DNA of 64,000 nucleotides from the human T2T-CHM13v2.0 reference genome, Homo sapiens, in the NCBI RefSeq assembly GCF_009914755.1, contig NC_060946.1. One strand, written 5' to 3'. The translations under genes and the position numbers were made by a program. The notes under the pieces were generated by a model, which did not search any database, was not told the origin of the DNA, and saw nothing but the letters and a program-made list of their open reading frames with translations. Positions 56,863 through 63,500 of the stretch are shown here, piece after piece; the stretch's first letter is position 1, and each line of letters starts with the position of its first letter.

Positions 56863-57318
56863 AGTTACAACTTTGGCTGGGAAGTAACAGGTGTAAATAA
56901 ACAAGGAAATATAGTAATTGTATGGAGATATGGCAAGTAAAAACAATGCTTGCTAAACACTCTTTTTTTGATGGTTTCATACTGTTACTGCGAATTGGAG
57001 GTACTCTAATTTATTTGACATTCTCTAGTTATCGGACTTCATGTCTGCTCTTTCAATGCTACAGTCAACATGGTGATGAAATTTTCTGGTTTAGGATTAC
57101 TTCCTCAAACTTGTTTCCCAGAAAAGGGCTTTCTGGGTCAAAAGTTATCAAAATTTTCTAAGGCTCTCAATATGATGACAAATGATTTCTCCAAGCGTGG
57201 GACAGATTGAGAGCTACAGTTTCCTGCCCTTACCTCATCTTCCAACTATGGAACCAAGTATTCCCTTCACAAAGAAAACCCATGATTCATGGTGTTAGAA
57301 GTCAGAATAGTGGTTTCC

Positions 57319-57647
<329 letters not shown>

Positions 57648-58168
57648 TCAGGAAATATTGACCAGAAGGGAGCATGAGGGAAGTTCTAGGTCTCTGTTTA
57701 CTTTTTGATCAAGCTACAAGGCTTTTCCTAAGCACCAGAAGGTTCCCTCATGCTTCTTCCCAACCAAAAGCGAATGGCTCCTCTGACTTCCTTTACCATA
57801 GATTAGATTTGCCTGTTCTTGAACTTCTTATAAATAAAATTATAACTTTTAAATCTTGATCAGGGTGCTAGTTATATTGGTGTGTTCTTTCTGTAAGAGC
57901 CACTGAGCTGTACCTTATGATATATTTTTCTGGTTGTATAAACGTGTGGGGCCAAGAGGAAGAATATTTCAGGGCACTGTTCACTCCGCGGCCTGCAGGG
58001 TCCTGCCTGACCATCCTCCTTGCAGAGGTAGCTGACAGTGTCTGTACCTGACTGTGCCCATTCCCCCATGTGGTCTTGGTTTATGGCGTTGGTGGGGGTG
58101 GGAGTAGGGCTGTGCCCATGAGCTAACCTGTCTCTCTCTTCTCTCCCCACTGTGTCCCTGTGTGTCAG

Positions 58169-58277
58169 TTCTGTGTCCATCTCATGTGCTGCGTGTGTCT
58201 GTAAAGCCTCATTCCGTGCTGTCTGGCAGGAAGCTCCATCTCATCTCATCATCTCACGGCCCTGGCACTGCCTCAGC
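58169..58277 (+). other. MYO18B: MYO18B 5'UTR part of the ATG-containing exon
   Basis: Branch point CTAAC 58123-58127, long pyrimidine tract, acceptor gtgtcag ending 58168; 109 nt to the ATG. Confidence 0.8.
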
Positions 58278-58316
58278 ATGGCCATCTCATCACGCCTCGC
58301 CCTGTGGGAGCAGAAG
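58278..58316 (+). CDS. MYO18B: MYO18B first coding segment (MAISSRLALWEQK), unconventional myosin XVIIIb
   Basis: ATG in agcATGg Kozak context; peptide matches the MYO18B N-terminus as recalled; joins 60416 in frame only via the AAG|gaaagt donor. Confidence 0.9.
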
Positions 58317-59026
58317 GAAAGTGACACTCATGGCTGGGGCTGCAGCCATCTGCAGGGACTGACTCGACCCTCGGGAGACAAGTCCGACCTTTCCCACCTT
58401 GAGTGGGGAGTCTGACATCCAGCCCTCCTAGTAGCATGTGCAATCCCACCTTCAACCTTCTCCCAGCCAGCTCGGTTAGCCTTGGCCTTTCCAACCCAGC
58501 TGGACACTGATGGCCATACCCTTGACGCCCCCCCGAGGGCTGCCTGGTTGTTTCCTGTTCCACAGGTGGTGGTGGTGGTGGTGGGGGGTGGTAGACCAGC
58601 TGTCCCAGCTGGATCCTCATGGCAGCTCTGATGAGCACTGGAGTTTGGGTGGGAGGAGGGGCACATGGGGGACAGAGGCAGGGCTGTCAGCTGCCAGGTT
58701 TATGCCACAGGGGTGGGTTTCTGTGGTCCCTGCCTTCGGGCACCATAGAGAACCGGAAACGGGCTCTCCTCCCCAGATATTCCTTTCTCCCCTTTAGTAT
58801 TTTTCATGATACGCTACGAAGGGCTGCCTCTTTCTAAGATGCCTGTCACTTCCTGCACCCTCACTCCACCTTGTGCATGTGATTTGATGAGTTGGAGGTG
58901 GGAGGGTGAGAAACTTCTTTCTGGCTGCCTCCTGCCTGCCCCTGCCCCTGCCCCTCCCAGCCTGATCTGGGGGTAGCAGCTAAAATGGCATTGGAAGCTG
59001 CAGAGGGTGCCTTAAGACTGTCTCTT

Positions 59027-59309
59027 GGCCAGGCGTGGTGGCTCACGCCTGTAATCCCAGTACTTTGGGAGGCCGAAGCAGGTGAATCATGAGGTCAGGA
59101 GTTCGAGACCAGTCTGGCCAACATAGTGAAACCACGTCTCTACTAAAAATACAAAAAATTAACTGGGTGTGGTGGTGTGTGCCTGTCATCCCAGCTACTC
59201 AGGAGGCTGAGGCAGGAGACAGAGGTTGCAGTGAGCCAAGATCGCGCCATTGCACTCCAGCCCGAGCGACAGTGCGAGACTCCGTCTCAAAAAAGAAAAA
59301 AAAAAAAAA
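59027..59309 (+). mobile_element. Alu (S-type) with a ~20-bp right-arm deletion, in MYO18B intron 2
   Basis: TSD aagactgtctct; gaggcaggag joined directly to acagaggttgcag. Confidence 0.9.
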
Positions 59310-60415
59310 GACTGTCTCTCACTTATGAAGTGTCTTTCAGTCCCACATCAGGAAGGAAAGAAGGGAAATGATGTTGATGTGGGCCCTGCAGTGCTGCCCC
59401 TGCTTCTCTGTCCCTGGGCAGAGGTCTGCATTCACCAGCTTTATCCCATGGCCTTGTCTCCTGGCCTTTGCTATCTCCTTTGAATTCCTCCCTTATCAGT
59501 TGGGCTACACACAGCAAGTCTTTACCATACATGCACAGAGGTTCTTGATAAGGAGGCTATTTTAGACCAGTATGGAGCTCTTCCGTATAAAGCACTGGTG
59601 ACTTTTTTTTCTTCTCATGGGCTGTCACTGATGCAGGCTAAAGACACACTTCAGTCGGCCACAGCTGGTCTCATGCCTCAGCCTCCAAGTCGCTGTAGCC
59701 AACAGCGGGGTCTCAGCTGCACCACAAGTCCAGCCAGTGCTGGCCTAGGCCGTATTTCTGGGGGGTAAAATATCAGGGTCCAACCTGCCTGTTCTAGGAC
59801 CCAGTGTTAGAGAGCTCCTGGCTGACCAAGTCCTGGTTTAAGGACTGTCAGGAAGCCACAGCACTGTGTCAGTTGAATGGGTTGGAGCCACAAGGTCAGG
59901 TCCTTATATAAGTCATGGCTGTAAGCCCTTCCCTATCTTACCATGTTCCTGGTGCATAGTAAGTGATTAATTGGTTCATCTATTATATTAACTATAAGCT
60001 GAGGGGGACCAGGAGAGCGTGGATGATTCCCTGTGATCCATCCCCTTCTGGAAACTGGGAAACCTCCTTTCAGAGCAGGTCCTTCTAGAAATGGGCATGT
60101 CCCATGGCAAGGAAGGGAACCAGCAGCCTTGACCATACAAGTGACTGTTCATATCACAAGGAGAGTGGATCCAGGCAGAAATCACATTGACCCGCATAAT
60201 TCCTGGCTGCCCCTGTGTTCCATTTTCATGCGCTGTCTCAGGGACCCCCCTGAGTCGTGCTGGGCCTCACCTGCTTGGCTGTGGCTTCTCATACATGGGC
60301 TTGGTCATGTATGTCTCCTCCGCCCCCTCCCAGGCTCCATCACAAACTTTGAAGGGCAGCTTGCTCCTGCTGGTTGACTCACTGAGCTCTCTCTTTCCTT
60401 GCTTCTGCAAAACAG

Positions 60416-60574
60416 ATTCGGGAAGAGGACAAGAGCCCTCCACCATCCTCGCCCCCTCCTCTTTTCTCTGTCATCCCAGGGGGCTTCATTAAGCAACTGG
60501 TCCGGGGGACTGAAAAAGAGGCCAAGGAAGCGAGACAGAGGAAGCAGTTAGCTGTCGCCTCTCCAGAACGAGAG
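60416..60574 (+). CDS. MYO18B: MYO18B second coding exon (IREEDKSPPPSSPPPLFSVIPGGFIKQLVRGTEKEAKEARQRKQLAVASPERE)
   Basis: Acceptor ctttccttgcttctgcaaaacag, donor GAG|gtaagt; 159 nt, phase 0 to 0; matches MYO18B as recalled. Confidence 0.93.
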
Positions 60575-63500
60575 GTAAGTGGTTCCTAAGAAGGAGGACC
60601 GTATGCGTTTCCATACCCATCATTCTGTCTTGTGAGCTTCCTCTGAGTCATTTGTCATCCTGCCTTTGCTCCTGCTGTCCTGGTTTTGAGGAATGTCCTT
60701 TATTCAACTTGATCTATTGAGCTCTTATGTACCCTTCAAAACCCAGCTCAAACAGCACATCTCTGGAAAGTTCTTCCATTGCCTGCCTTCCTCTGAATCC
60801 TGCTGCACCTTCTATGCCTGTCTTAACTGTGGTTGGTTGGCATAGTACTTATTTGATTATATGACTTATTTGACTAGAAATTCCTTAAGAGCAACAATGA
60901 TTTCTCTCATTCAATTCTGTATCTTAAGCAGCCCTCATAGTACTTGGTCAGTAGTGAGTGCTTAACAGTTTGTTTAGTGAATGAATAAATGATATTCATT
61001 GATGCATGGTTGGTGGGGATTACTTGAACACTATTTTTATAGAAAAGGAAACCTAGATACTGGCTAAGATGTATAGTTGGTTCACTTTAAGCAGAAAGCT
61101 ATTGAGTTGGTACTAACTGGTGTAGTTGCATTGATTGTTAAAATATTGAATCCTTCATACCAGGTGGTAAATGGTTGTAACCCTTGGCCCCCCAAGTGCC
61201 TTCAGCTGCCATGTTTACCCAGGTCCCTCTCCTGAGTCCCTTGGAATGGCTACAATCCAATAATTACAGGGTTAATGCTTGGCACAGGTAGGAACCTCAG
61301 TACCTTCCTCCAGCTGGTGTCCGTCCTGATTGGTTGATGTCCACTAAAAATCCTTAGCTATTCTGAATAGCGCTGCTGCATTGAAGCAATAGTTGAATGC
61401 AATGTGGCCCTTACACTTTAAGGATTTGTAAACTTGTCGCTGGTGGTGGCCAGTGCTATTTCTCTCTTGTCCTCTTTAGCCATGGAACCTGGGCAGGATG
61501 ACAAGGTGGACCATGAGGGAGGCAGGCTTGGAATGCAATGCATCTTGGGAGTATCCCTGTGTTAGGTAGAAAGGGCATCTCTTTGTGTCTCCAGCGCCCC
61601 CTTCAGACAAGGTGAATGCTGCAATGCTTGGGCTGAGAGGTCTGGTGGCCTCAGGGCCTGGTGCTGGCTTGAGCCCAGTGACCCATCCTGACTCTTCCTT
61701 CCCCTCCCCTTCAGCTTTGGTTTGCCCGGCTAGTCCCACATGTGCCTGCACCTGTCTGATGAACGACTTTGATGCATTAGAGAGGTCTTCCAGCAACTGA
61801 ACAGTAGCAGCTGCTGAAATACCTCGGCCAAGTCTTTGTTGGGGAGGTTGACAGGGAGGACAGGCTCTGTTCCCACTCTTGCCTGACCTAAGGCATAAGT
61901 GGGGGCCAAAGTTGACCCCGGCAGGCTGTTGTTAGGTTATGATGAAATGTTACTGTGTGCTGTTTATCTCCAGACAATGCTGCTTTGCTGCTCATGGGCT
62001 CATTTAATACCCCGTGCAGCAATGCAGGTGGATGGGATTCTACCCATTTATCACAGGTGGAGACTGAGGCCAAAAGAGGTCAAGTGATTTTCCCAAGGTC
62101 ATCAGACCAGATAGAGGCAGAGCGAGGGGGAGAGCCTGTGTGTTCTCTGCTCTCACAAGATGCCTGGAAAAGGACCAGTCTGGTGAGTGAGGTGGCCGGG
62201 GTGGTGCCACAGAGACCTGGGGGAAAGGGTTCCATGAGATTGACACCAGCAGCGCTGGTGTCACTGTGAGCAAGTAAAGAGGCAGAGTTAAGCCATGGAT
62301 GGGGACAAACTGTCACTGCTGTGCCTGGATGGAGACTCAGAGCCAAGATGCAGGATGGCTCTGAGCCTCAGCCCACAGCAGGTGGCTGGACCATGGGCCA
62401 AGATATTCCTGGGGCTGGAGCAAGGGAGCCTCAGGACATGTTTCCACAAGGCAGCAAGCTCTGGCTGGTTCCTGCCAATTTAATTTTCTTGTCCCAATCA
62501 ATAAATAACTCCGTACTCTCTTGCCTTGTCCCAGCACAACTGTTTCATTTGATCCTCATCTAATCCTTGCAAGAAGCCATTAGAATCCATCCCATTTTGC
62601 AGGAATGGAAAACAAGGCTTGGGGAAGTGACCTGGTTCTCCTAGGGCTACCCAGTCAGTGAGGAACAGGGAGAGGCTGGAATAACACTGGAGTGGAAAGT
62701 AACCCGTATTGAATGTCAAGGAGACCTAGATTCTAGCTCTGGCCCTGCCGCTTTTTGTGGTCCTGGCTAAACCCCTTCCCCTTTCTTGGCCTCAGTTTAC
62801 TCATCTGTAAAAATGTGCTATTAGTTTCTATTGGCCCCAGTTATTCTAGAGGTGCTGTTTCCCTCTATATGCTAAAAAGGGTGGCAGGGTGGGGGGACCA
62901 AAGGCTTTGATGACTTTGAAGGTCCAAAGGAAGAGAATCCATGGGCATATGAGGGTGGGGTGGGAGGAGGCTGGCACTGGTTATCTTGTTTGGCCCACCC
63001 CATGTTACTGTCTCCTCTGTGGTGGTTGGTTAAAAATAAGGCACTGACTTACTTTTCAATATGGTGTAGACAGTGGTGAGATTTGCCAAGTGCAGTCAAT
63101 CCCCCTTCCAAGGCTATGTCCTGCCTTCCCCCAGAAGGTCAGGAGAAGCTACTCGGCCTTGGGCCCCAGAGCCATGATGCTGAGCACCAGCTGAACCTCG
63201 TAATCACCCGGGCAGTCACAACCCAGGCAGACTCAATCAGAGTCTCTGGGAATAAGGCCAAGGAGTTAAGGTTTTTAAAAGTGCCCCAGGAGATTCCAGA
63301 GAGCCCTAGAGAGAAAAGGAAGGGCATCTAATATGCCGCAGTTCAAGGCACTGGCTTTGGAGTCAGAGAGAACTGGCTTTACATTTCACCTTTGTAGCTG
63401 GGTCACCTTACATCTTTACATCTAGTTCTTTGCTTGTAGAATGGGGAGAAGTTCAGAATCTACTCCAGTTGTTCCTTCGGAGGATTAAATAGGAGATTGC

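What the first reader, a model, noticed from the sequence alone, without database searches (positions are those of the whole stretch)
58305..60492. MYO18B reading frame needs a GA-AG non-canonical intron, with a frameshifting GT donor 4 nt downstream
Seen: after ...GAG CAG AAG (EQK, ends 58316) the sequence is GAAAGTGAC, the donor consensus AAG|GTAAGT with only the invariant +2 T replaced by A. Splicing 58316 to 60416 gives EQK-IREEDKS, the MYO18B N-terminus as I recall it. The nearest GT (58321, AAA|GTGAC) adds 4 nt and reads E-NSGRGQEP...RGLH to a stop at 60490-60492. Known: GA-AG introns are very rare; the described FGFR case also has a GA donor next to a nearby GT donor. Inference: choice between the two donors could switch MYO18B between productive and NMD/short-peptide mRNA right after the start codon. 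I cannot tell whether this is already annotated or is a variant of this haplotype.
Basis: partly seen in the sequence, partly recalled or inferred. Interest (0 to 1): 0.8.

Follow-up and report, generated by a model that had tools for sequence, protein, structure and literature searches.

The report
MYO18B's conserved GA-AG intron, already catalogued
The second intron of the human muscle myosin gene MYO18B really does begin with GA instead of the near-universal GT, but this rare splice site is already in the reference gene models and in a 2014 catalogue, and the proposed on/off switch with a neighbouring GT remains untested.

Summary
The start codon is at 58278. Exon 2 ends at 58316, and the intron (58317-60415, 2099 nt) starts GAAAGT and ends AG. 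The annotated join keeps the frame open. The GT at 58321 adds 4 nt and runs into TAA at 60490-60492.

It is not a haplotype quirk or an error:
- Parada et al. 2014 (PMC4176328, supplementary table) list the same 2099-nt GA-AG junction in hg19. It is classed as U2-like, with 6 cDNAs and 846 tissue reads (heart and skeletal muscle among 6 tissues), and four GENCODE v17 transcripts use it.
- ORFs called on unspliced genomic contigs of other, unnamed vertebrates read through the donor. In 8 of 8 the codon after EQK is Glu, so +2 is A. Three sauropsid models read Gly, so +2 is G.

Apart from +2, the donor is a full consensus site. It can form 8 of 11 pairs with U1, against 6 of 11 for the +5 GT.

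The "switch" idea is unproven. No exon in the gene table ends at 58320, and I had no junction counts. Reporter work (Erkelenz 2018) does show that a +5 GT can be co-activated at GA sites.

Verdict: a real, conserved non-canonical donor that is already annotated and catalogued. Interest is modest.

The parts
58169..58316 (+). MYO18B exon 2 (5' UTR plus the first 13 codons; ATG at 58278)
   Evidence: Hub gene table; (translation).
58306..58321 (+). Purine-rich tract across the junction (15 of 16 purines); candidate exonic enhancer
   Evidence: An enhancer role is inferred, not tested.
58317..58322 (+). Non-canonical GA donor core GAAAGT (+1 to +6); consensus at every position except +2
   Evidence: Used in transcripts according to Parada 2014.
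58321..58322 (+). GT at +5/+6 of the GA donor; a possible cryptic donor adding 4 nt (frameshift)
   Evidence: No annotated exon ends at 58320 (hub table). Use not measured.
58332..58340 (+). G-rich element GGCTGGGGC at intron +16 to +24. Its first Gly codon is invariant in 9 of 9 aligned read-through ORFs
   Evidence: An enhancer role is inferred.
58317..60415 (+). Intron 2, 2099 nt, GA-AG, U2-type
   Evidence: Parada 2014 supplement.
60374..60382 (+). Branch-point candidates (TTGAC, CTCAC; A at 60377 and 60381)
   Evidence: motif match only.
60386..60415 (+). Pyrimidine-rich tract and AG acceptor. There is no other AG in the last 29 nt
60416..60574 (+). MYO18B exon 3 (53 codons, phase 0), followed by a strong GT donor
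   Evidence: Hub table. Homologues.
60490..60492 (+). TAA reached if the +5 GT donor is used; it lies 82 nt before the end of exon 3

Best explanation
Intron 2 of MYO18B is a genuine U2-type intron whose donor is GA instead of GT. It is conserved in evolution, and it is the donor used by the main MYO18B mRNA. The site matches the donor consensus at every other position (AAG|GAAAGU). U1 snRNA can therefore still dock in the normal register, with 3 + 5 base pairs around a single A-A mismatch. Positions +4 to +6 keep the bases that U6 normally pairs with. The strongly purine-rich exon end, a conserved G-rich element 16-24 nt into the intron and a clean acceptor probably supply the extra help that GA donors need in reporter assays. 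The GT 4 nt downstream is the +5/+6 GU that every consensus donor carries. It pairs poorly with U1 in its own register. At most it is a minor, frame-breaking by-product site. Shown here: the sequence, the junction, its use in human tissues (from the literature) and conservation of +2 A. Inferred: U1/U6 recognition, the enhancer roles and low use of the +5 GT.
For: Sequence and frame.

Transcript use: in the Parada 2014 supplement, sheets 'Total' and 'U2_U12_like' list MYO18B as GAAG, 2099 nt, class U2_GTAG, score 76.1. Support is 69 reads in the 16-tissue mix, 6 cDNAs and 846 reads in 6 tissues including heart and skeletal muscle. Four GENCODE v17 transcripts use it. Among the 14 GAAG rows I counted in that sheet, it has the second-highest tissue read count, after FGFR1 (2739).

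Not a variant: hg19 and T2T-CHM13 agree, and the paper removed sites with dbSNP135 variants.

Conservation: 8 of 8 read-through ORFs from other species read EQK-E-S. In alignment A1 an invariant block runs from 2 codons before the ATG to intron +6 in 9 of 9 sequences. The hedgehog model runs into the intron with ES.... Four annotated models (snub-nosed monkey, Weddell seal, sand lizard, softshell turtle) have the same EQK|IREED junction.

U1 pairing: 8 of 11 positions, dG -6.7 kcal/mol, for the GA register; 6 of 11, dG -2.4, for the +5 GT register.

Not U12-type: there is no U12 donor or branch-site motif.

The gene table lists no exon ending at 58320.
Against: I had no junction read counts for 58320>60416, so low use of the +5 GT is an inference. 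RNA-seq aligners and annotators favour GT, yet none of the listed RefSeq exons uses it, which is only weak support.

Erkelenz 2018 found that GA sites in a reporter needed a strong enhancer and that the +5 position was co-activated. In fibroblasts only GC and TT non-canonical sites stood as primary sites without a highly used GT nearby. A stand-alone primary GA donor goes against that generalisation.

G runs are not clearly enriched at the start of the intron: 4 in the first 150 nt, against 39 in 2099 nt.

Conservation of +2 was read from amino acids of unnamed contigs, not from aligned genomes.

The original FGFR paper (PMC152907) and the MYO18B gene-structure paper (PMC129434) were not held.
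Confidence: 0.88

Rival explanations
1. The GA donor and the +5 GT donor form a regulated pair. Muscle cells shift between the productive mRNA and a frame-shifted mRNA that is degraded or makes a 39-residue peptide, and this sets MYO18B output.
For: The +5 GT exists, and using it gives a stop 82 nt before the next exon junction. In reporters with the same GAAAGT core, the +5 position was co-activated at GA sites when both enhancers were present (Erkelenz 2018). Secondary GT sites cluster at +5/+6 of primary donors genome-wide (same call).
Against: No exon ending at 58320 appears among the exons the gene table lists for the 14 RefSeq transcripts. The +5 GT pairs weakly with U1 (6 of 11, dG -2.4) and lacks G at -1 and +5. 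The stop lies within about 120 nt of the start codon, a zone where decay is often inefficient (recalled, not from a call). There is no evidence of regulation. A +5/+6 GT is present in every consensus donor, so its presence here needs no special explanation.
Confidence: 0.1
2. The GA is a reference-specific allele, an assembly error or a reverse-transcription artefact, and the real donor is canonical.
For: Two bases (AG) are shared at both intron ends, so the junction can be placed in three ways. Short repeats of this kind can promote template switching.
Against: Two independent assemblies (hg19 in Parada 2014; T2T-CHM13 here) have GA. Sites with dbSNP135 variants were filtered out. Six cDNAs and 846 reads support the junction. 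8 of 8 read-through ORFs from other species have Glu, not Val, after EQK. Models from four named species share the protein junction.
Confidence: 0.01
3. The intron is removed by the minor (U12) spliceosome, or becomes canonical through RNA editing.
For: Some non-canonical introns are U12-type. ITPR1's GA-AG intron was once misfiled as U12 (TOGA2 preprint). Parada 2014 found a few sites made canonical by A-to-I editing (abstract).
Against: There is no U12 donor motif at the intron start and no U12 branch-site motif in the last 60 nt. Parada classed it as U2_GTAG. Editing A to I at +2 would read as GG, which is still not GU.
Confidence: 0.01

Closest known systems
GA donors of FGFR1, FGFR2 and FGFR3 (Twigg 1998; Brackenridge 2003; both known to me only through citing papers)
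   Same: U2-type GA-AG introns that are conserved, efficiently used, and have a GT a few bases away. FGFR1 and FGFR2 sit in the same Parada 2014 list with similar scores (76.7 and 74.5, against 76.1). Downstream intronic elements are said to be needed in FGFR. MYO18B has a conserved G-rich element at +16 to +24.
   Different: As described by Parada 2014 and by Frey and Pucker 2020, the FGFR GA depends on a canonical GT 6 nt upstream, and the pair is an in-frame alternative. In MYO18B the nearest upstream GT is 13 nt away (58304). The only close GT is 4 nt downstream and breaks the frame. The GA site is the donor of the main transcript, not the minor partner.
ITPR1 GA-AG intron (Parada 2014, Figure 6A text; TOGA2 preprint supplementary legend)
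   Same: An annotated U2-type GA-AG intron in a large conserved gene, confirmed by RT-PCR, and prone to misalignment onto a nearby GT.
   Different: It lies in the middle of the gene (intron 24), not right behind the start codon. I did not compare its sequence context.
Reporter GA site CAG|GAAAGTAT (Erkelenz et al. 2018, PMC6280755)
   Same: The same GAAAGT core. It shows that a GA site with full flanking consensus can be spliced, and that the +5 GT can be co-used.
   Different: The reporter's GA site ranked low (GC > TT > AT > GA > GG > CT) and needed a strong SRSF7 enhancer. MYO18B uses its GA site as the main donor in vivo.
Abundant GA/GG donors in the copepod Eurytemora affinis and in Oikopleura dioica (PMC5714493 abstract, from a search listing; PMC7072748 passages)
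   Same: GA (and GG) donors with AG upstream and A downstream.
   Different: There it is a genome-wide property (about 12% of introns in the copepod). In humans it is a handful of sites.

Membership tests
U2-type GA-AG non-canonical intron | The intron starts GA and ends AG, with transcript support that cannot be re-placed on a canonical pair | tested here: met
   only GA-AG, GG-CA or AG-AC give the same mRNA. Transcript support comes from the Parada 2014 supplement and the hub gene table.
U2-type GA-AG non-canonical intron | The remaining donor positions fit the U2 consensus and can pair with U1 | tested here: met
   8 of 11 positions pair, with the only internal mismatch at +2. The consensus and the U1 5' end were recalled, not taken from a call.
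U2-type GA-AG non-canonical intron | No U12-type donor or branch-site motif | tested here: met
   0 matches to the four recalled branch-site patterns in the last 60 nt, and none to the donor pattern at the intron start. Parada 2014 class U2_GTAG.
U2-type GA-AG non-canonical intron | Not a polymorphism or an assembly error | tested here: met
   hg19 and T2T agree. Sites with dbSNP135 variants were filtered out. 8 of 8 read-through ORFs from other species keep Glu. Population frequencies were not available to me.
FGFR-type GA/GT alternative donor pair | A canonical GT 6 nt upstream that supports the GA site | tested here: not met
   there is no GT between 58306 and 58316; the nearest upstream GT is at 58304. 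The feature is as described; the original paper was not held.
FGFR-type GA/GT alternative donor pair | Both donors are used and give in-frame isoforms | tested here: not met
   The offset is 4 nt, so the frame shifts. No exon ending at 58320 is in the gene table. Use of the GT was not measured.
Alternative splicing coupled to nonsense-mediated decay | The unproductive junction is observed and rises when decay is blocked | not testable with these tools
   No read-level data could be reached. Only the sequence consequence was shown: a stop 82 nt before the exon end.
U12-type (minor) intron | A donor /RTATCCTY and a branch site TCCTTRAY 10-26 nt from the acceptor | tested here: not met
   (motifs recalled).

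The most novel reading that the evidence does not exclude
The MYO18B exon-2 donor is a stand-alone, constitutive non-GU donor that has carried a purine at +2 since the amniote ancestor: GA in mammals, GG in birds and reptiles. It has no canonical partner to lean on, which contradicts the view that GA sites work only beside a strong GT. Leakage to its own +5 GU is then used to tune how much full-length MYO18B muscle cells make.
Probability: 0.1. Interest if true: 0.6.

Novelty: already known. Interest (0 to 1): 0.3.

Why it matters
MYO18B is needed for sarcomere integrity, and loss-of-function variants cause myopathy (literature seen). Its first coding junction depends on one of the rarest donor types in the human genome.

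The practical consequences are real. Aligners, gene predictors and variant-effect tools that assume GT can mis-place this junction. Several automated vertebrate models lack the first coding exon or run into the intron.

For splicing research, this is a natural GA donor used as a main site, apparently conserved across mammals. That makes it a useful test case next to FGFR. The fact itself is already in the annotation and in a published catalogue.

Tried and rejected
- **Papers not held:** Brackenridge 2003 (PMC152907), Nishioka 2002 (PMC129434) and Burset 2000 (PMC113136). The FGFR mechanism is therefore quoted second-hand. Whether the first MYO18B gene-structure paper noted the exception is unknown.
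- **Literature searches:** 'MYO18B' + 'GA-AG' gave 0 papers. 'MYO18B' + 'non-canonical splice' gave 2. I read passages of one, which were unrelated to this junction, and saw the other only in the listing. 'MYO18B' + 'noncanonical' + 'splice' gave 4, judged unrelated from titles and abstract starts only. In that library, no main text discusses this donor.
- **Parada 2014 supplements:** file 1, which may hold the mouse-conservation list, could not be searched.
- **Sheth 2006:** no GA-AG entry in the passages found.
- **Rfam scan of 57000-61500:** only sub-threshold Alu-like and microRNA-like hits; nothing at the donor.
- **G-run enrichment near the donor:** not convincing.
- **Whole-library HMMER search:** it added no informative read-through ORF. 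P0041 is a multi-stretch hit that I took for low complexity without fetching it. P0042 reads the donor in another frame, where +2 is a wobble base. Both were dropped from the count.
- **Rejected readings:** U12-type, RNA editing and template switching (see rivals).

Full report
**Observation.** I read both ends of the claimed intron and translated the alternatives from the window.
- The start codon is at 58278.
- Thirteen codons end with ...GAG CAG AAG at 58316. The next bases are GAAAGTGAC, so 58317-58318 is GA.
- The acceptor is ...CTTGCTTCTGCAAAACAG|ATTCGG, with AG at 60414-60415.
- Joining 58316 to 60416 gives EQK|IREED... and stays open through exon 3 (60574).
- Using the GT at 58321 adds four bases and ends at TAA 60490-60492, the 40th codon, 82 nt before the end of exon 3.
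- Of nine junction shifts tested, three reproduce the same mRNA: GA-AG, GG-CA and AG-AC. Only GA-AG has an AG acceptor behind a pyrimidine-rich tract.

Every coordinate in the finding is correct.

**Is it real, and is it known?** The hub's gene table shows that the selected RefSeq transcript NM_032608.7 uses exactly 58169-58316 and 60416-60574. The GA-AG intron is therefore implicit in the annotation.

Parada et al. 2014 (PMC4176328) list the junction in their supplementary workbook. I read the header and the rows.
- The row is MYO18B, chr22:26157098-26159197 (hg19), 2099 nt, dinucleotides GAAG, class U2_GTAG, score 76.1.
- Four GENCODE v17 transcripts use it.
- The length equals that of the window's intron.
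- The row appears both in the sheet 'Total' and in the sheet of high-confidence U2/U12-like sites. The paper gives 184 such sites; I did not recount them.
- In that sheet I counted 14 GAAG rows: CAGE1, CKS1B, FGFR1, FGFR2, ITPR1, METTL23, MYO18B, RP11-58B17.1.1, TEX101, TRAF3, two unnamed genes, UPF3B and XAF1. Six of the 14 were annotated in GENCODE v17.
- MYO18B has the second-highest tissue read count, after FGFR1 (2739).
- The authors removed sites overlapping dbSNP135 variants.

The main text never mentions MYO18B. My three MYO18B literature searches found no paper whose main text discusses this donor. The junction is catalogued but not individually described.

**Conservation.** No vertebrate genomes were available, so I used an indirect reading. 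The protein database holds ORFs called on unspliced genomic contigs. The human stop-to-stop ORF through exon 2 (58122-58412, 97 residues) continues past EQK into the intron. The codon after K therefore spells intron +1 to +3: Val would mean GT, Ala GC, Glu or Asp GA, and Gly GG.
- Searches at two length ranges returned eight such ORFs from unnamed contigs, 46-79% identical to the human ORF. All 8 of 8 read EQK-E-S.
- In the alignment, an invariant block runs from two codons before the ATG through intron +6 in 9 of 9 sequences. It is followed by an invariant Gly codon at +16 to +18.
- Two further hits from the whole-library search were dropped as uninformative.
- Eight annotated models carry the exon-2 peptide. 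Four have the human junction: snub-nosed monkey, Weddell seal, sand lizard and softshell turtle.
- The hedgehog model runs 8 residues into the intron, beginning ES.
- A gecko model runs 14 residues in, beginning GS. A duck model and a turkey model insert GS.
- The other named models fetched start elsewhere or are partial. That is what one expects if predictors stumble on a non-GT donor, but this is an inference.

The +2 A is therefore not human-specific. Sauropsids appear to have G at +2, which I could not check at the DNA level.

**How it most likely works.**
- *U1 and U6.* Apart from +2, the site is a full consensus donor. In the normal register it can form 8 of 11 pairs with the U1 5' end (3 + 5 around one mismatch; dG -6.7 kcal/mol). 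The +5 GT manages 6 of 11 (dG -2.4). The same site with U at +2 gives -11.4. Positions +4 to +6 keep the bases that U6 usually pairs with (established knowledge, recalled).
- *Flanking elements.* The 16 bases across the junction are 15 of 16 purines. A G-rich element (58332-58340) is conserved.
- *Acceptor.* It has a 29-nt AG-free zone, 70% pyrimidines, and two branch-site-like motifs 35-39 nt upstream.
- *Not U12-type.* There are no U12 donor or branch-site motifs.
- *Reporter evidence.* Erkelenz et al. 2018 (PMC6280755; abstract and sections read) tested the same GAAAGT core. The GA site was spliced only with a strong upstream enhancer. It ranked below GC, TT and AT. The +5 position was co-activated when both enhancers were present.

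My reading is a U2-type donor recognised through flanking complementarity plus enhancers, with the +5 GT as an intrinsic and mostly silent by-product site. The recognition steps are inferred.

**The switch hypothesis.** Its sequence premises are right, and the reporter data make some +5 use plausible. Several points weigh against it:
- The gene table lists no exon ending at 58320.
- The +5 GT is weak in its own register.
- A GT at +5/+6 is part of every consensus donor.
- I could not obtain junction counts.

I rate it as possible but unsupported (about 0.1).

**Comparison with known cases.** The FGFR GA donors are the textbook relatives. According to the papers I could read, they depend on a canonical GT 6 nt upstream and on downstream intronic elements. 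One citing paper says U6 rather than U1 sets the site. MYO18B differs in three ways. It has no upstream GT within 12 nt. Its nearby GT is downstream and out of frame. And the GA is the main donor. That last point runs against the fibroblast-based generalisation that only GC and TT non-canonical sites act as primary sites without a highly used GT nearby. MYO18B is not named anywhere in that paper's main text.

**Verdict.** The feature is a real, conserved and rare donor, but it is already annotated and catalogued, so interest is modest. What remains open and testable is how much the +5 GT is used, and how old the non-GU state is.

Noticed in passing
window 58323-58474: This alternative first exon from the gene table has an ATG at 58436 that is in phase with exon 3 (13 codons), and a canonical GT donor at 58475. 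That gives a second short N-terminus that bypasses the GA donor. An upstream ATG at 58330 opens a short ORF.
   Followed up: partly
window 58500-58565: A 66-nt cassette exon with AG/GT flanks, open in the MYO18B frame (22 codons). If it is spliced from exon 2, it would make a second GA-AG intron of 183 nt. Its donor sits on a (GGT)n run at 58566-58590.
   Followed up: partly
window 62057-62182: A 126-nt cassette exon with AG/GT flanks between exons 3 and 4, open in frame (42 codons).
   Followed up: partly
window 57319-57600 and 59026-59290: Two Alu-like stretches on the + strand (sub-threshold SRP-RNA and microRNA-family hits). One lies upstream of exon 2 and one inside intron 2.
   Followed up: no
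window 58150-58205: A TG-rich tract spans the exon-2 acceptor and the start of the 5' UTR. It could bind GU-rich-element proteins.
   Followed up: no
proteins P0020, P0025, P0028 (gecko, duck, turkey models): These read EQK-GS before the exon-3 peptide. This implies GG at +1/+2 in sauropsids and, in birds, perhaps a GT donor 6 nt further on. It was read from protein only.
   Followed up: partly
protein P0012 (unnamed 2144-nt contig): A transcript-like ORF in which exon 3 is already joined to the next exon but is preceded by intron-2 sequence. This suggests intron-2 retention or an internal start in another mammal.
   Followed up: no
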